Below, one piece after another: positions 444-55,399 of a DNA stretch of 64,000 bases. Source of the DNA: Burkholderiales bacterium (GTDB lineage Bacteria; Pseudomonadota; Gammaproteobacteria; Burkholderiales; JACQAP01); contig DASUFB010000033.1 of assembly GCA_036274775.1 (NCBI GenBank), positions 16,426 to 80,425 of the forward strand, read 5' to 3'. Every line of letters starts with the position of its first letter. The stretch's first letter is position 1. The position numbers and the translations under genes were made by a program. The notes beneath the pieces are model-generated. The model was not told the origin of the DNA, made no database searches, and saw only the letters and a program-made list of their open reading frames with translations.

Positions 444-1676
444 CTAGGCCTTGTCCTGGTCGTGCCAGTGCTTGCGCGTGAGCAGCGCCATGGTCGCGGA
501 GATGAACAGGCCGAAGCAGCAGATGATCGCATTGATCGACATGTCGACCCTGATCATCAGCGCGTAGACGCCGAGCAGCACCAGGATGGACAGGTTCTCG
601 TTGAAGTTCTGCACGGCGATCGAATGCCCGGCGCCCATCAGCAGGTGGCCGCGGTGCTGCAGCAGCGCATTCATCGGCACCACGAAATAGCCGCCCATCG
701 CGCCGATCAGCACGAGCAGGCTGACGGCGACGCGCCAGTCGCGCACGAATACCATCAGGATGACGAGCACGCCCATGGCGATGCCCACAGGCAGCACCCG
801 CACGGAGCGCTTGAGCGTCACGTATTTCGCGGCGAGCACCGAGCCGATGGCGATGCCGACGGCGACCACCGCCGTGAGCTGCGTGGCCTTTTCCAGGCTG
901 AACTTCAGCGCCATCGAGGCCCAGGTCAGCACGATCAGGCGCAGCGTCGCGCCCGCGCCCCAGAACAGCGTGGTCACGGCGAGCGACACCTGGCCGAGCG
1001 GGTCGCGCCAGAGCAGGCGCAGGCTGTGCCAGAAGTCCTGCATGACGAACAGCGGGTTGCGTTTCTGCAGCTTGTGGTCGATCGCCACCCTGGGGATGTG
1101 CAGGTTGATCATCGCGGCCAGGAAATACAGCAGCAGGATGACGGTGATCGCGAGCTCGGGGGGCGTGTCGATGCCGGTCTCGATGAACGGCAGGTCGAGG
1201 CGGTCGAACGCGTACTCGGCGAACTCGTTGCTGACCATGAGGCCGCCGAGGATGGAGCCCAGGATGATGGCGGCGACCGTGAGGCCCTCCATCCAGCCGT
1301 TGGCAAGCACGAGCTTCTGGTGCGGCAGGTACTCGGTCAGGATGCCGTACTTTGCCGGCGAGTACATGGCCGCGCCGATGCCGACGAGCCCGTAGGCGAG
1401 CAGCGGATGCAGGCCGAGCAGCATGGCGAGGCAGCCCAGCAGCTTCACCGCGTTGGCCACGAACATCACGCGCCCCTTGGGCAGCGAGTCCGCGAACGGG
1501 CCAACGAAGGGCGCCAGCACGATGTAGGCGAACACGAAGAACTGCTGCAGCACCGGCGTCTGCCAGGCCTGCGCATGCAGGCTCGCGAGCAGCGCGATGG
1601 CGGCGAACAGCAGCGCGTTGTCAGCCAGTGCCGAGAAAAACTGCGCGGACAGGATGGTGTAGAACCCGCGATTCAT
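444..1676 (-). CDS. lplT: lysophospholipid transporter LplT (MFS)
   Basis: C-terminal 410 aa of the 941-aa track ORF, starting MNRGFYTILSAQFFSALADNALLFAAI (ATG at 1676). Multi-TM MFS pattern typical of LplT. The upstream part of the track ORF is antisense to alr/radA. Confidence 0.8.
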   Translation of the reverse strand: MNRGFYTILSAQFFSALADNALLFAAIALLASLHAQAWQTPVLQQFFVFAYIVLAPFVGPFADSLPKGRVMFVANAVKLLGCLAMLLGLHPLLAYGLVGIGAAMYSPAKYGILTEYLPHQKLVLANGWMEGLTVAAIILGSILGGLMVSNEFAEYAFDRLDLPFIETGIDTPPELAITVILLLYFLAAMINLHIPRVAIDHKLQKRNPLFVMQDFWHSLRLLWRDPLGQVSLAVTTLFWGAGATLRLIVLTWASMALKFSLEKATQLTAVVAVGIAIGSVLAAKYVTLKRSVRVLPVGIAMGVLVILMVFVRDWRVAVSLLVLIGAMGGYFVVPMNALLQHRGHLLMGAGHSIAVQNFNENLSILVLLGVYALMIRVDMSINAIICCFGLFISATMALLTRKHWHDQDKA

Positions 1677-2948: not shown

Positions 2949-4306
2949 TGGCGCGCGCGAAAACCGTCTACGCCTGCACCGAATGCGGCGGCCAGACGCT
3001 GAAGTGGCAGGGGCAGTGCCCGCATTGCTCCGCGTGGAACACGCTGGTGGAGACCATCGCCGAGAAGCCCGGCGCATCGCGCTACCAGGCCGTGGCCGAA
3101 TCGAGCCGGCTGCAGAAGCTCGCGGAAGTCGAGGCGCGCGAGGAGCCGCGCAGGCCGACGGGCATCGACGAGCTCGACCGCGTGCTCGGCGGCGGGCTGG
3201 TGGCCGGTGCCGTGGTGCTGATCGGCGGCGATCCCGGCATCGGCAAGTCCACGCTGCTGCTGCAGGCACTGTCGGTCATGGGCGCCGGCTGCAAGGCGCT
3301 CTACGTGAGCGGCGAGGAGTCGGCGCAGCAGATCGCGCTGCGGGCGCGCAGGCTGGCCGTGGATGCGTCCGCGCTGGACCTGCTCGCCGAGATCAACCTC
3401 GAGAAGGTGCTCGCCGTGCTCGGCGCGCAGCGGCCCGACGTGGCCGTCATCGACTCGATCCAGACCCTGTACTCCGAGGCGCTGCAATCGGCGCCGGGCA
3501 GCGTGGCGCAGGTGCGCGAATGCGCCGCGCAGTTGACGCGCTTCGCCAAGTCGACGGGCTGCGCGCTGATGCTGGTCGGCCACGTCACCAAGGAGGGCGC
3601 GCTCGCCGGCCCGCGCGTGCTCGAGCACATGGTCGATGCCGTGCTCTATTTCGAGGGCGACACGCATTCGAGCTTCCGGCTCGTGCGGGCGATCAAGAAC
3701 CGCTTCGGCGCGGTCAACGAGCTCGGCGTCTTCGCCATGACCGAGCGCGGGCTGCGCGGCATCTCCAATCCGTCGGCGCTGTTCCTGTCGCAGCACGGTG
3801 CACAGGTGCCGGGCTCCTGCGTCATGGTGACCCAGGAAGGCAGCCGCCCGCTGCTCGTGGAAGTGCAGGCGCTGGTCGACGAGGCGCACGCACCCAATCC
3901 GCGGCGGCTGTCCGTCGGCCTCGAGCAGAACCGCCTCGCCATGCTGCTCGCCGTGCTGCACCGTCACGCGGGCATCGCGGCGTTCGACCAGGACGTGTTC
4001 GTGAATGCCGTGGGCGGCGTGAAGATAGACGAGCCGGCCGCCGACCTGCCGGTACTGCTGGCGATCGTGTCGTCGCTGCGCGCCAGACCGCTGCCGGAGA
4101 AGCTCGTCGCTTTCGGCGAAATCGGCCTGGCCGGCGAGGTGCGCCCGGTGCAGCGCGGCCAGGAAAGGCTGAAGGAGGCGGCCAAGCTCGGCTTCCGCAT
4201 GGCGATCATCCCGAAGGCCAACGCGCCCAGGGGCCGCATCGAGGGCCTGGAGGTGGTGGCGGTGGAACGGGTGGAGGAGGCGGTCAGAAAGGCCGTGAAT
4301 GCGTGA
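2948..4306 (+). CDS. radA: DNA repair protein RadA/Sms
   Basis: Starts MARAKTVYACTECGGQTLKWQGQCPHCSAWNT (zinc finger). Walker A GGDPGIGKST, KNRFG motif, Lon-like C-terminal domain. The ATG overlaps the alr stop (TGATG). The track ORF from 2786 is an upstream extension. Confidence 0.95.
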   Translation: MARAKTVYACTECGGQTLKWQGQCPHCSAWNTLVETIAEKPGASRYQAVAESSRLQKLAEVEAREEPRRPTGIDELDRVLGGGLVAGAVVLIGGDPGIGKSTLLLQALSVMGAGCKALYVSGEESAQQIALRARRLAVDASALDLLAEINLEKVLAVLGAQRPDVAVIDSIQTLYSEALQSAPGSVAQVRECAAQLTRFAKSTGCALMLVGHVTKEGALAGPRVLEHMVDAVLYFEGDTHSSFRLVRAIKNRFGAVNELGVFAMTERGLRGISNPSALFLSQHGAQVPGSCVMVTQEGSRPLLVEVQALVDEAHAPNPRRLSVGLEQNRLAMLLAVLHRHAGIAAFDQDVFVNAVGGVKIDEPAADLPVLLAIVSSLRARPLPEKLVAFGEIGLAGEVRPVQRGQERLKEAAKLGFRMAIIPKANAPRGRIEGLEVVAVERVEEAVRKAVNA

Positions 4307-4404
4307 ATATCGTGAATAACGTGAATGTCGATCTAGAGCTCTAGGCTTTCTGCGGCATTAGACGTATTCACGACATTTACGATATTCACGCATTCACGGC
4401 CTTT
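4288..4404. repeat. tandem-unit hairpin element, copy A1 (CGTGAATN units)
   Basis: aaaggccgtgaatgcgtgaatatcg (4288-4312) is the perfect reverse complement of 4380-4404. Further imperfect GTGAAT units extend the stem to about 43 bp. The loop contains the palindrome ctagagctctag. The radA stop (4304-4306) lies inside the left arm and the kinase stop (4404-4406) abuts the right arm. Confidence 0.9.
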
Positions 4405-5708
4405 CAATGCAGCGCGAACATCGTCAGCGCCGCGGCCGCGAGAACGGCGCTGCCGATCCAGATCAGCTTGAGGGGGGAGCCGGGAGAGCGCGCGAGCGCC
4501 GGGCCGCCCGCCGGCGCCGCCGGCTGCTGCCAGGTCGTGCTGCCGGAAAGCGTGGAGGCCGCGGCCGAGCGCTTGGCATCCGCCAGCGCCTTCAGGCGCG
4601 CGATCTTCTGTGTTTCCGAGAACTTGTCCAGTTCCTTCTCCATGCCGGTCAGCGCCGCGAGCCTCATGGTCGCATCGAAGGAGTCGAAGGCCTTCGACAG
4701 ACCCAGCGCCGGATTCGTCTGCTCGCTGGCGGAGTCCCGGGCGGGTGCGCCGTCGGGCGCCGTCCCCGCTTCGGCCATCTCCAGGATGCGCGCCTCCTTG
4801 TCCTCCTGGCGCGTCAGCAGCGCGGCGGGCTCGTTGCGCGCCGCTTCCCGGGCGGGCGGCGCGGCCGTCTCCACGGGCGGCGGAGACTCGCCGGCAAGCT
4901 CCGCGCGCGCGCGGCGCAGATCGCCGGCAAGGTCCCGCGCGTGCTGGTAGCGGTCATCGAGGTTCTTGGCGAGCGCCTTGGCGATGATGAAATTCAGGAC
5001 CTCTGGCAGGTCGGGGTTCAGCGTGCGCGGCGCCGGCGGATTGAAGTTCACGGTCTGGTACATGACGCCGTGGATGTTGTCCGCGACGAAGGGCGAGGTG
5101 CCGGTGAGCATCTCGTAGAGCACCACGCCCAGCGAGAAGATGTCCGAGCGCGCGTCCGCGCGTTTTCCCGAGACCTGCTCGGGCGACATGTACTTCGGCG
5201 AGCCGAGGATCATGCCGGTCATGGTCTTGATCTCGTTGTTGCGCATGCGCGCGATGCCGAAGTCGGTGATCTTCACCAGCCCGTCGTCGAGCACCATGAT
5301 GTTGGCGGGCTTGATGTCGCGATGGATGATCTGGCGGTCGTGCGCGAACTGCAGGCCCTCGGCCACCTGCGCACCGATGTCGAGCGCCTGGGGCACGCGG
5401 ATCGGCACGCGCGACTGCAGCATGCGCCGCAGCTCCTGGCCCTCGAGGAACTCCATGGCCATGTAGGCCACCTTATCGCTGCGGCCGATGTCGTAGATGG
5501 TGACGATGTTGCGGTGGGACAGCCCGCCGGCGGCCTTGGCTTCCTGGTAGAAGCGCGCCTCGTATTCCGCGAGTTCGTCCTTGGGCAACGTCAGGTTGAT
5601 GGTCTTGATGGCCACCACGCGGTCCAGGAGCGGGTCACGCGCCTTGTAGACCACGCCCATGGCGCCCTGCCCGAGCTCCGCGATGACCTCGTAGCGTCCC
5701 AGCATCAT
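4404..5708 (-). CDS. Hanks-type Ser/Thr protein kinase, C-terminal tail anchor
   Basis: GQGAMGVVYKA ... AIK, HRDIKPANIM, DFG, SPKYMSPE. Pro/Ala-rich linker and a terminal hydrophobic helix IWIGSAVLAAAALTMFALH. Start taken at MMLGRYEV (5708). The track start at 5777 would overlap the upstream gene by 52 nt. Confidence 0.85.
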   Translation of the reverse strand: MMLGRYEVIAELGQGAMGVVYKARDPLLDRVVAIKTINLTLPKDELAEYEARFYQEAKAAGGLSHRNIVTIYDIGRSDKVAYMAMEFLEGQELRRMLQSRVPIRVPQALDIGAQVAEGLQFAHDRQIIHRDIKPANIMVLDDGLVKITDFGIARMRNNEIKTMTGMILGSPKYMSPEQVSGKRADARSDIFSLGVVLYEMLTGTSPFVADNIHGVMYQTVNFNPPAPRTLNPDLPEVLNFIIAKALAKNLDDRYQHARDLAGDLRRARAELAGESPPPVETAAPPAREAARNEPAALLTRQEDKEARILEMAEAGTAPDGAPARDSASEQTNPALGLSKAFDSFDATMRLAALTGMEKELDKFSETQKIARLKALADAKRSAAASTLSGSTTWQQPAAPAGGPALARSPGSPLKLIWIGSAVLAAAALTMFALH

Positions 5709-9392: not shown

Positions 9393-9514
9393 ATGTCGTG
9401 CCTGACTTCGCCGGGTACCGGGCTCTGCCCATCGATAACGTGAATATCGATCCTGGGATCGGGTGCTGTTCCGGCCTCACGTATTCACGACATTCACGAT
9501 ATTCACGGCTTTTG
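9380..9514. repeat. tandem-unit hairpin element, copy A2 (CGTGAATN units, rearranged)
   Basis: Left aaaaggtccgtgaatgtcgtg. Internal unit cgtgaatatcga (9439-9450). Right arm cacgtattcacgacattcacgatattcacggctttt. The acs stop TGA (9390-9392) is the TGA of the first GTGAAT unit. Confidence 0.8.
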
Positions 9515-11273: not shown

Positions 11274-11455
11274 AGGGCCTGAGCCACAGAGGACACAAAG
11301 AGCACAGAGAAAACCTGGAGAAGAGTCACAGGCGGAAGCATGCGGGCGGGCACGGCCCGATCGGGCAACGGGCTGCGACGGACAATCACCGGCCAAGAAC
11401 GAAATCCCATCTCCTGAATTTTCTCTGTGCTCTCCGTGTCCTCTGTGGCTGAAGA
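11271..11455. repeat. tandem-unit hairpin element, copy B (CACAGAG/ACAAAGAG units)
   Basis: 31-nt arms 11283-11313 (gccacagaggacacaaagagcacagagaaaa) and 11419-11449 (reverse complement, 2 mismatches). 105-nt centre. Begins at the etfA stop (TGAAGGGCC). Confidence 0.9.
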
Positions 11456-24512: not shown

Positions 24513-24524
24513 TGCCTACATCCC

Positions 24525-24698
24525 ATCACGAAGACACGAAGGACACGAAGGAACACGAAGAAAAGCAACAGAAGGTATCTGTGTGCCACGCCTTCAACAG
24601 GCCCCTCTTGCAGCGACGAAAATTTTGCCGACGAAATTGTTCCATGCTGCGCGTTTGCTCTTCTTCGTGCGTCTTCGTGTCCTTCGTGTCTTCGTGAT
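24525..24698. repeat. tandem-unit hairpin element, copy C (CACGAAGR units)
   Basis: atcacgaagacacgaaggacacgaag (24525-24550) is the perfect 26-bp reverse complement of 24673-24698. The arms continue imperfectly to about 40 nt. About 90-nt centre. Starts 12 nt after the fadB stop. Confidence 0.92.
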
Positions 24699-24728
24699 GA
24701 GAAGTAAATAGATTGAGAGGTGTAGATC

Positions 24729-44041: not shown

Positions 44042-44219
44042 AGGCCGTGAATGCGTGAATATCGTGAATGTCGTGAATACGTGAAAATACCGGCCAGAGA
44101 TTTCAGTGCAGGCTGAAGTCCGGCGGGCGGAAGCCCGATCAACGCTACGCCGGAGCTGATGTCGATGCGGAGCCCTGGGCTTCTGCGATATTCACGGTAT
44201 TCACGGTATTCACGGCTTC
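44040..44219. repeat. tandem-unit hairpin element, copy A3 (CGTGAATN units)
   Basis: Left arm has 5 units (gtgaatg/gtgaata/gtgaatg/gtgaata/gtgaaaa, 44040-44091). Right arm has 3 units (atattcacggtattcacggtattcacggcttc, 44185-44219). 93-nt centre. Bounded by the ppiD stop and the fabI stop. Confidence 0.88.
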
Positions 44220-55206: not shown

Positions 55207-55386
55207 ATCCAAAGGTGAAAGGGTGAAAGGGTGAAAGGTGGAAAGGGAAAAGGTGAAAGGTGAAAGGTGGAAAGGGAAAAGGTGAAAGGTGAAAGGTGAA
55301 AGGTGAAAGCAAAGGCAAAGACGGGCTGCGACGGGGGTTTGTTCCCGCGATTTTCTTTTCTTTCGGCTTTGAACTTTCCCCTTTGA
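55207..55386. repeat. tandem-unit hairpin element, copy D (GGTGAAAG units, strongly asymmetric)
   Basis: Left arm 55211-55320 has about 15 units (9x GTGAAAG, 2x GTGGAAAG, 2x GGAAAAG, plus variants), including an exact 29-nt duplication (55231-55259 = 55260-55288). Right arm 55351-55386 is a degenerate complement (ttttcttttctttcggctttgaactttcccctttg). Confidence 0.85.
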
Positions 55387-55399
55387 GCTCGCTTCGCTG

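What the first reader, a model, noticed from the sequence alone, without database searches (positions are those of the whole stretch)
11342..11382. Conserved central core shared by elements with unrelated arms
Copies with different arm units still share centre sequence. cgggctgcgacgg is identical over 13 nt in copy B (11369-11381) and copy D (55322-55334). Copy B 11342-11382 is gcgggcgggcacggcccgatcgggcaacgggctgcgacgga. It aligns with copy A3 44122-44154, ggcgggcggaagcccgatcaacgctacgccgga, with only small indels. Copy C has caacaggcccctcttgcagcgacgaaaa, and copy A2 has gcccatcgataacg. This points to a common ancestral core (roughly GCCCGATC..AACG..GCTGCGACGG). The arms have been re-homogenised independently around it. 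The core is in the same orientation on the + strand wherever it is recognisable. It could be a protein-binding or processing site, or the loop of a functional RNA.
Basis: seen in the sequence. Interest (0 to 1): 0.62.

Follow-up and report, generated by a model that had tools for sequence, protein, structure and literature searches.

The report
No shared core; one nested repeat
The hairpin elements in this window do not share an ancestral central core: one centre (A3) holds a copy of a separate small folded repeat found about 30 times in the genome, a second (B) may hold a decayed copy, and the other matches are isolated.

Summary
All quoted strings are present at the stated coordinates. The shared block between B and D is actually 14 nt (ACGGGCTGCGACGG).

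The family does not share a core.
- About 80 paired hairpin elements in this genome show no common central motif above shuffled or genomic background.
- The 13-mer occurs only three times in the genome: in B, in D and inside a gene.
- At the same gene junctions in sister species, arms and flanks are about 90% identical while the centres are unrelated. The centre is the variable part.

- The centre of A3 (44096-44162) is a copy of a distinct structured intergenic repeat, here called R1.
- Its consensus is GTTTCAGTGCAGGCTAAC-variable hairpin-GTTATGCCGGAACTAAAAC.
- R1 has 31-33 copies in this genome and is present in every same-genus genome searched.
- It has compensatory base-pair changes and no Rfam match.
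- It sits in 8 of about 30 GTGAAT-array loci, always in the same orientation.

B's centre resembles A3's R1 copy more than chance predicts (p about 5e-4), but it fails the family profile, so it may be a decayed copy. A1, A2, C and D show no R1 match; D's only link is the 14-mer shared with B. The strain-level test could not be run.

The parts
11282..11313 (+). Element B, left arm (tandem CACAGAG-type units). It starts 9 nt after the etfA stop codon.
   Evidence: 32-nt inverted repeat, 94% complementary to 11419-11450. The whole element folds at -87.2 kcal/mol, z = -6.0.
11314..11418 (+). Element B, centre (105 nt). It has no detectable copy elsewhere in this genome or the genus.
   Evidence: No significant match in 37 genus genomes beyond itself. 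No non-self hit at E<1e-3. No Rfam family or terminator. The sub-stretch 11330-11395 folds no better than shuffles, z = +0.46.
11322..11382 (+). Stretch of B that aligns, with indels, to the R1 copy of A3. It is a possible decayed R1 and contains the finding's interval 11342-11382.
   Evidence: Gapped local score 43 against a genomic null of 23.6 +/- 4.2, p about 5e-4. Score 35 against another R1 copy (C34:43010), p about 8e-4, in the same register. No hit with the R1 covariance model or HMM, even in a targeted search.
11368..11381 (+). 14-nt block ACGGGCTGCGACGG, identical to 55321-55334 in D.
   Evidence: The 13-mer core has only 3 occurrences in the genome.
11419..11450 (+). Element B, right arm.
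44046..44085 (+). Element A3, left arm (CGTGAAT-type units). It starts at the ppiD stop codon and ends in GTGAAAA.
   Evidence: Tandem array of period 9 with 4.7 copies; sequence.
44096..44162 (+). Copy of the R1 structured repeat inside the centre of A3.
   Evidence: cmsearch with model R1 gives 48.4 bits, E = 4e-10. It is the only hit below E = 6 in the whole window with filters off. nhmmer gives E = 7e-16.
44189..44215 (+). Element A3, right arm (TATTCACGG x3).
   Evidence: The whole element folds at -91.1 kcal/mol, z = -7.6.
55211..55309 (+). Element D, long AAAGGTG array after the rnhA stop. The right arm is degenerate.
   Evidence: Period 7, 13.6 copies. The element as a whole does not fold into a hairpin, z = -0.2.
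55321..55334 (+). 14-nt block in D identical to B. It overlaps by 3 nt the 5' side of a terminator-like hairpin at 55332-55347, which is followed by a T-rich tail.
   Evidence: No R1 hit in this region at E<=10 in the whole-window search. None of six sister species read at this junction has the block.
4287..4405 (+). Element A1 (GTGAAT arms, 39-nt centre). It has no R1 and no core match.
9429..9507 (+). Element A2: right-arm array (ATTCACGAC units, 9483-9507) preceded by a decayed left part. Its 'gcccatcgataacg' runs into arm-unit sequence (ATAACGTGAATATCG), not R1.
24517..24706 (+). Element C (CACGAAG arms). Its centre has no R1 and no significant match to the other centres.

Best explanation
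The interval 11342-11382 is the GC-rich top of one long gene-end hairpin, element B. Its arms are tandem CACAGAG-type units.

Across the family, the arms are what is kept and the centre is a variable filler. No ancestral core is common to the elements.

1. **A separate nested repeat (shown).** The centre of A3 carries a copy of R1, a distinct small structured intergenic repeat. R1 is an imperfect hairpin of 50-70 nt: GTTTCAGTGCAGGCTAAC, a tip of variable length, then GTTATGCCGGAACTAAAAC. It is dispersed through this genome and genus. It sits preferentially, and always in one orientation, inside GTGAAT-type arrays after the words GTGAAAA.
2. **A possible decayed copy (inferred).** B's centre is most likely a decayed, indel-ridden remnant of the same R1 sub-lineage.

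The 14-nt identity between B and D, and the fragments quoted for C and A2, are isolated matches with no wider support.

How R1 works is inferred, not shown. Three features point to a site recognised as a folded single strand: conserved unpaired flanks, a stem kept by compensatory changes, and strict orientation. It could spread or recombine like REP or IS200/IS605-end-type hairpins, or act within the 3' untranslated RNA of the upstream gene.
For: **Element catalogue.** About 80 paired elements in five arm classes.

**No shared central motif.**. 57 of 74 centres are unique.

**Whole-element copies.** Paralogous copies share arms and centre together, and the homology ends at the outer arm ends.

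**Orthologous junctions.**
- G002 and G011 share flanks and CGCAAAG arms, but the centre is unalignable.
- G012 and G013 keep one element. Centre identity is 149/156, left arm 32/33, flanks 30/33 and 45/49, so the centre is not specially conserved.
- G016, G010 and G009 have empty sites.
- At the rnhA-dnaQ junction the units and centres differ in every species.

**Arms across phyla.** The arm 19-mer CACCACAGAGGCACAGAGG recurs in 120 or more contigs from many phyla, with unrelated centres of 2-315 nt.

**R1 as a real family.**
- 33 nhmmer hits and 31 cmsearch hits in this genome, and 1-40 hits in every same-genus genome searched.
- 13 predicted pairs, 5 of them with compensatory changes.
- All copies but one are intergenic.
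- 8 of about 30 GTGAAT loci carry R1 against 0.08 expected, all in the same orientation. The same association holds in G004, G005 and G046.
- A3's copy scores 48.4 bits.

**B against A3's R1 copy.** p about 5e-4; against a second copy p about 8e-4, in the same register.
Against: - B is not detected by the R1 covariance model. The best targeted hit is 1.2 bits, E = 1.3.
- B is not detected by family HMMs either. It scores -1.5 bits against a sub-family HMM built without A3.
- B shows no similarity to six other R1 copies, p 0.05-0.45. The two copies it resembles are the most GC-rich ones, so shared GC-rich composition could inflate the score.
- The B/D 14-mer has an in-window shuffle probability of only 0.2-0.6%. 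It remains formally unexplained.
- No strain-level data were available.
- Nothing here shows whether R1 acts as DNA or RNA, or what moves it.
Confidence: 0.55

Rival explanations
1. Only A3 contains R1. The B/A3 alignment and the B/D 14-mer are both chance matches between GC-rich, hairpin-prone sequences, and B's centre is unrelated filler.
For: - B gets no hit from the R1 covariance model or HMMs, even in a 131-nt targeted search.
- B resembles only the two most GC-rich R1 copies.
- Genome-wide, shared blocks of 13-15 nt between some pair of centres are expected in shuffles.
Against: - B scores 43 against a genomic null of 23.6 +/- 4.2, 10 points above the next best loop.
- Alignments to A3, C34:43010 and the G004 copy all fall in the same R1 register.
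- After correction for 30 in-window comparisons, p is still about 0.015.
Confidence: 0.33
2. All the hairpin elements descend from one element with a functional central core (about GCCCGATC..AACG..GCTGCGACGG), and the arms were later re-homogenised independently at each locus.
For: - There are in-window similarities among B, A3 and D in one orientation.
- Cross-class centre pairs scoring 24 or more are about twice the shuffled expectation, 11 against 5.9.
Against: - The composite motif occurs only in B.
- There is no enrichment of its parts over the genome rate.
- Centres at orthologous sites are unrelated while arms and flanks are conserved.
- B and D centres have no homologue in 36 genus genomes.
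- Elements with the same arms in other phyla have centres of 2-315 nt with nothing in common.
- Part of the cross-class excess consists of purine-run matches next to the arms.
Confidence: 0.04
3. R1 is the seed of at least the GTGAAT-class elements. Arrays are built or expanded around an inserted R1, which later decays or is lost, so a 'core' is ancestral for that class only.
For: - R1 is tied to GTGAAT arrays in a fixed orientation and with a fixed left junction, GTGAAAA, in several species.
- B may show a decayed R1 in another arm class.
Against: - About 22 of 30 GTGAAT loci have no R1.
- About 20 of 33 R1 copies lie away from any array.
- R1 usually sits at the outer edge of the left arm, not in the centre.
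- At the ppiD site, relatives have a plain terminator, or elements of other arm classes without R1.
Confidence: 0.08

Closest known systems
Paired (convergent) heptamer repeat arrays at gene ends, GGGAATC in Xanthomonas and GGGGA(C/T)T in Nostoc (Rehm et al. 2015, PLoS One, PMC4692102)
   Same: - Short tandem units of 7-9 nt sit in two arrays of opposite orientation.
- They lie within about 50 bp of stop codons.
- They are present at the same gene junctions in related species, with changing unit numbers (paper read; here).
   Different: - That paper describes one G-rich, quadruplex-forming unit per genome and says nothing about the sequence between the arrays.
- This genome holds five or more unit classes without G-tracts (CACAGAG, CACGAAG, CGTGAAT and others).
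- The question here is the centre, which proves to be variable.
REP/BIME-type interspersed extragenic palindromes, and non-autonomous derivatives of IS200/IS605 ends (PATEs). This comparison rests on my own knowledge of those families.
   Same: R1 is a short, intergenic, multi-copy imperfect hairpin. It has conserved unpaired flanks, a strict orientation at its insertion context, frequent tandem copies, and presence/absence differences between species.
   Different: - R1 has no GTAG head.
- Its hairpin tip varies from about 7 to 40 nt.
- Y1-transposase ORFs are missing from five genus genomes that still carry R1.
- No R1 copy flanks the two Y1 ORFs of this genome.
Integron attC recombination sites. 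This comparison rests on my own knowledge of that family.
   Same: - R1 is a folded site with two conserved box pairs around a tip of variable length, plus a bulged base.
- Its inner boxes GGCTAAC / GTTATGC match RYYYAAC / GTTRRRY at 6 of 7 positions each (read from alignment A3).
   Different: - The attC-like boxes are the inner pair, not the outer pair.
- The outer boxes run GTTT...AAAC, the reverse of attC.
- Copies are solitary or in tandems of 55-145 nt without cassettes.
- No integrase search was made.
Intrinsic (Rho-independent) terminators
   Same: - The elements occupy the position where sister species have a plain GC hairpin plus T-run, at the ppiD junction.
- D's centre holds a terminator-like hairpin.
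   Different: B's centre has no terminator-like site. The 30-60 bp arms and roughly 100-nt centres are far larger than a terminator.

Membership tests
Gene-end paired tandem-unit arrays (Rehm et al. 2015 type) | Two arrays of 7-9-nt tandem units in convergent (inverted) orientation | tested here: met
   Inverted repeats I1-I3 and arrays of period 7-9 at A1, B, C, A3 and D. About 80 such pairs genome-wide.
Gene-end paired tandem-unit arrays (Rehm et al. 2015 type) | Position within about 50 bp of a stop codon | tested here: met
   B starts 9 nt after the etfA TGA, A3 at the ppiD TGA, and D just after the rnhA TGA, all read directly.
Gene-end paired tandem-unit arrays (Rehm et al. 2015 type) | G-rich unit able to form a quadruplex (GGGAATC / GGGGAYT) | tested here: not met
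   The units here are CACAGAGG, CACGAAGA, CGTGAATAT and AAAGGTG, with no runs of three G per unit.
   The composite motif occurs only in B.
   G002/G011 centres are unalignable while arms and flanks are about 90% identical. In G012/G013 the centre is 95.5% identical, the left arm 97% and the flanks 91-92%. A strain-level test was not possible.
R1 structured repeat (defined here) | Match to covariance model R1 (conserved 5' GTTTCAGTGCAGGCTAAC, a stem with compensatory changes, 3' GTTATGCCGGAACTAAAAC) | tested here: met
   For A3 (44096-44162): 48.4 bits, E = 4e-10. A3 was one of the 17 sequences used to build the model, but nhmmer from three other copies alone would still place it (A3 was among four there).
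R1 structured repeat (defined here) | The same test applied to B, D, C, A1 and A2 | tested here: not met
   No hit at E<=10 over the window with filters off. B in a targeted search: best 1.2 bits. Among the window's other centres the HMM gives only two chance-level partial hits in A2 (0.8 and -1.4 bits). B shows only pairwise similarity to two copies.
REP elements mobilised by RAYT | Conserved GTAG head, and a Y1 (RAYT) gene flanked by the repeats and co-occurring with them | tested here: not met
   There is no GTAG in the R1 consensus. Y1_Tnp ORFs are absent from G003, G004, G010, G012 and G014, which all have R1. No R1 lies next to the two Y1 ORFs of G000.
Integron attC sites | Outer boxes RYYYAAC ... 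GTTRRRY, cassette spacing, integrase nearby | tested here: not met
   The attC-like boxes are the inner pair, and the outer pair has the opposite polarity. Copies are solitary or in short tandems in intergenic DNA. No integrase search was made.
Any Rfam 15 family | Score at or above the gathering threshold | tested here: not met
   No hit on any element in the window. Permissive scans of B and A3 give only chance-level miRNA-hairpin hits.

The most novel reading that the evidence does not exclude
R1 is a mobile or recombining module recognised as a folded single strand. It targets tandem GTGAAT-type arrays in one orientation, at the GTGAAAA junction. Its insertions, tandem duplications and decay are one source of the otherwise unexplained variable centres of gene-end hairpin elements. 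B would then be a decayed example in a second arm class. Two so far undescribed repeat systems would be linked mechanistically.
Probability: 0.12. Interest if true: 0.65.

Novelty: new member of a known kind. Interest (0 to 1): 0.33.

Why it matters
- **What the result changes.** It removes a tempting but wrong reading of these elements, that a functional core sits inside interchangeable arms. The evidence points the other way: arms and position are kept, and centres are replaceable.
- **Where to look for function.** The search should move to the tandem-unit arms, whose exact sequence recurs across phyla.
- **A second repeat family.** R1 is a structured repeat absent from Rfam and from the literature I could search. 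Its strict, orientation-specific association with one arm class is a concrete handle on how such intergenic repeats spread.
- **Limits.** For general biology the result is modest. The 'core' as proposed is not a feature of the family.

Tried and rejected
**Motif tests**
- Longest common substrings between 72 centres against dinucleotide shuffles showed no excess.
- Smith-Waterman all-against-all comparison, with arm units masked, showed an excess. It comes from same-class paralogues and from purine runs next to the arms.
- Presence of 6- to 8-mers against shuffles found only arm-proximal words enriched. GCGACGG and CCGATC were nominally high but not above the genome rate or multiple testing.

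**Homologue searches for the centres**
- BLAST of B, A3 and D centres against 37 genus genomes gave nothing for B or D.
- The R1 model over the window, and in a targeted search of B, hit only A3.
- An HMM of the R1 sub-family built without A3 scored B at -1.5 bits.

**Known families and signals**
- Rfam at gathering and permissive thresholds gave nothing.
- A terminator scan of B found none.
- B's centre alone has no special fold, z = +0.46.
- A literature search for the exact arm and R1 sequences found no relevant paper.

**Closer relatives and reads**
- A metagenome scan with EtfA for close strains found nothing above 78% amino-acid identity. Of those 80 loci, only one had any hairpin after etfA.

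**Mobilising enzyme**
- A Y1-transposase profile showed no co-occurrence with R1.

**Alternative origins of the centre**
- Inversion of the centre between G002 and G011 is rejected. The reverse-complement score is 18.
- The centre as the original spacer at etfA-acd is rejected. The empty sites of G016, G010 and G009 do not resemble B.

Full report
**What is at the site**

The window lies in a 2.83-Mb, 67.6% GC draft genome of 55 contigs, about 77% complete.

The interval 11342-11382 is the top of a long hairpin, element B.
- Its 32-nt arms (11282-11313 and 11419-11450) are tandem CACAGAG-type units, 94% complementary.
- The element begins 9 nt after the etfA stop and ends 58 nt before the next gene.
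- As RNA it folds at -87.2 kcal/mol, z = -6.0.

The window holds further elements of the same build with other units:
- A1, at 4287-4405;
- A2, a partial copy near 9430-9507;
- C, at 24517-24706;
- A3, at 44046-44215;
- D, at 55211-55390.

Genome-wide I catalogued about 80 paired copies in five arm classes: CACRRAG 54, GTGAAT 14, GAAAG 6, CGCAAAG 5 and GTGACGAG 2. Loops are typically about 100-110 nt.

**Check of the observation**

Every quoted string is present at the stated coordinates. The B/D identity is 14 nt, ACGGGCTGCGACGG, at 11368-11381 and 55321-55334.

*B/D block.*
- Within the six loops of the window, a block of 13 nt or more arises in 0.6% of dinucleotide shuffles, and 14 nt or more in 0.2%.
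- Among 72 centres genome-wide, shuffled sets already give longest blocks of 11-15 nt.
- Pairs sharing 10 nt or more number 18 observed against 17.5 shuffled.
- The 13-mer occurs three times in the genome: B, D and a coding region at C29:67193.

*B/A3 alignment.*
- It scores 25 under strict scoring, p = 0.004 for that pair.

*Proposed composite core.*
- The two halves, CCGATC and GCGACGG, co-occur only in B.
- GCGACGG occurs 8 times in the loops against 4.9 expected from its genome frequency. CCGATC occurs 20 times against 9.9, partly through paralogous pairs and its own palindromy.
- The words that are clearly over-represented in loops (GCAAGAA, CAAGAAGA, GGGAATGA) lie next to the arms. They are the imperfect inward continuation of the stem.

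**Which part of an element is conserved**

*Paralogues within the genome.*
- Clear paralogues exist, for example C16:18207/C21:9513, C14:56625/C9:59893 and C22:47480/C22:53163.
- In each pair the arm class is the same, the homology runs through arms and centre together, and it stops at the outer ends of the arms.
- 57 of 74 centres have no second copy in the genome.

*The etfA-acd junction in sister species.*
- G002 and G011 share flanks and CGCAAAG arms at about 90% identity. Their centres of about 100 nt are unalignable in either orientation, scores 15 and 18.
- G012 and G013 keep one CACGGAG-armed element. Centre identity is 149/156, left arm 32/33, flanks 30/33 and 45/49, plus one 9-nt unit gained or lost in the right arm. 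The centre is therefore no better kept than its surroundings.
- G004 has CACAGAG arms and yet another centre.
- G001 keeps only half an element.
- G016, G010 and G009 have short plain spacers.

*The rnhA-dnaQ junction.*
- Five of the six species read carry heptamer arms with a different unit: GAGGGAT, GGGGATT-type, GTGATTG or GAGGACT. G010 has none.
- Their centres are unrelated, and none contains the 14-mer.
- G012 and G002 share arm class and right flank there but not the centre.

*Wider searches.*
- B's and D's centres have no homologue in 36 further genomes of the genus.
- The exact arm 19-mer CACCACAGAGGCACAGAGG is found in 120 or more contigs from many phyla. About 4 would be expected by chance in 596 Gb.
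- In 67 of these loci a paired arm is present, and the centres are 2-315 nt long with nothing in common.

The arms and the position are what persists. The centre is replaceable.

**The real part: a nested repeat**

The same BLAST showed that A3's centre has weak paralogues. Following these with nhmmer revealed a family that I call R1.

*Sequence and structure.*
- It has a conserved 5' part, GAGTTTCAGTGCAGGCTAAC.
- A hairpin tip follows, of variable sequence and length (about 7-40 nt).
- It has a conserved 3' part, GTTATGCCGGAACTAAAAC.
- An alignment of 17 copies gives a consensus hairpin of 13 pairs, 5 of them with compensatory changes.

*Distribution.*
- A covariance model finds 31 copies in this genome.
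- It finds 1-40 copies in every same-genus genome searched, and copies in five other families of the order.
- nhmmer finds 33 copies, all but one outside high-GC3 reading frames.
- In the window the model hits only 44096-44162, inside A3, at 48.4 bits and E = 4e-10, with filters off.
- Rfam has nothing like it, and the sequence is in no paper I could search.
- R1 includes the tandem copies at C49:38600-38706. Their GGCTAACCTG is the reverse complement of the CAGGTTAGCC motif in earlier notes e1-2360542 and e1-2360543, so R1 is very probably the same family.

*Association with GTGAAT arrays.*
- 8 of about 30 GTGAAT loci carry R1, against 0.08 expected.
- It is always on the strand that reads GTGAAT and always follows GTGAAAA.
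- Copies in G004, G005 and G046 show the same context.

At the ppiD junction most sister species have an ordinary terminator hairpin where this genome has A3. G011, G012 and G013 have elements of other arm classes without R1. R1 is therefore not ancestral to that site.

**Is B a decayed R1?**

*For.*
- With gap-tolerant scoring, B's stretch 11322-11382 aligns to A3's R1 copy with score 43.
- Random genomic 105-mers give 23.6 +/- 4.2, p about 5e-4. The next best loop scores 33.
- B also scores 35 against a second copy, C34:43010, p about 8e-4.
- The alignments to A3, to that copy and to the G004 copy fall in the same R1 register.

*Against.*
- B gets nothing from the covariance model: best 1.2 bits in a targeted search.
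- B gets nothing from the family HMM.
- It scores -1.5 bits against a sub-family HMM built without A3.
- It is not similar to six other copies.

I rate descent from R1 as somewhat more likely than chance, but not established.

**The other copies**

- D shares only the 14-mer with B. In D the block abuts a terminator-like hairpin at 55332-55347.
- C and A1 show nothing in any test.
- A2's 'gcccatcgataacg' runs straight into arm-unit sequence.

**Mechanism**

*Shown.*
- There is no family-wide core.
- The centre is the variable part.
- A3 holds a copy of a separate, structured, orientation-specific repeat.

*Inferred.*
- Centres turn over by exchange between the near-identical arms of different copies, or by insertion and decay of small repeats such as R1.
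- R1 is recognised as a folded single strand, of DNA (REP- or IS200-end-like) or of the upstream gene's 3' RNA.
- Y1-transposase ORFs exist in this genome but are absent from five genus genomes that still carry R1. This argues against a simple RAYT-type partnership.

**Limits**

- The metagenome scan returned nothing closer than 78% EtfA identity.
- The genome is an incomplete draft, so copy counts are lower bounds.

Noticed in passing
window 11285-11303 and about 50 other sites in the genome; loci L107-L226: The exact arm sequence CACCACAGAGGCACAGAGG occurs in at least 120 contigs of species-representative genomes from many phyla, including Planctomycetota, Acidobacteriota, Gemmatimonadota, Chloroflexota, Bacteroidota and cyanobacteria. 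About 4 would be expected by chance. Its usual terminus is TTCACCAC, and 67 of 120 loci have a paired inverted arm. All listed records are MAGs.
   Followed up: partly
window 44096-44162; genome C9:86276-86404, C34:17765/43010/115285, C29:183121-183274, C39:10894, C55:51252: The R1 structured repeat sits inside GTGAAT-type arrays at 8 of about 30 loci. It is always on the GTGAAT-sense strand after GTGAAAA, and often in 2-3 tandem copies. The same context is seen in three sister species.
   Followed up: yes
window 44042-44215 compared with L228-L240: Most sister species have a plain terminator hairpin with a T-run (for example AAAGGCCCGCATGC..GCATGCGGGCCTTTT in G010) between ppiD and the convergent gene, where this genome has element A3. 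Next to the right arm, CTTCT occurs on both sides of the ATTCACGG array (GGGCTTCTgcgatattcacgg...cacggCTTCTATTCGATCT). This could be a short duplication made when the array arose.
   Followed up: no
L003 (G021) 1350-1480, minus strand: At the etfA-acd junction of G021, an element with CACGGAG outer arms encloses a second pair of arrays. The left array is CACGAAG units and the right is CTTTGCG units, which are not complementary classes. This is a nested or chimeric element.
   Followed up: no
genome C22:47480-47648 and C22:53163-53319: Two paralogous hairpin elements with about 85% similar centres lie in opposite orientation 5.6 kb apart on one contig. I did not examine what lies between them.
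   Followed up: no
genome C50:30433-30759 and C50:30841-30872: One of the two Y1-transposase-like ORFs of the genome lies about 80 nt from a 10-nt tandem array (CACCATTCAA x3.2).
   Followed up: no
genome C21:30467-30733, C21:35914, C21:52802, C54:73457, C1:19692: One centre sequence of about 110 nt recurs at five or more loci at 75-85% identity. It is a small sub-family of whole-element copies.
   Followed up: no
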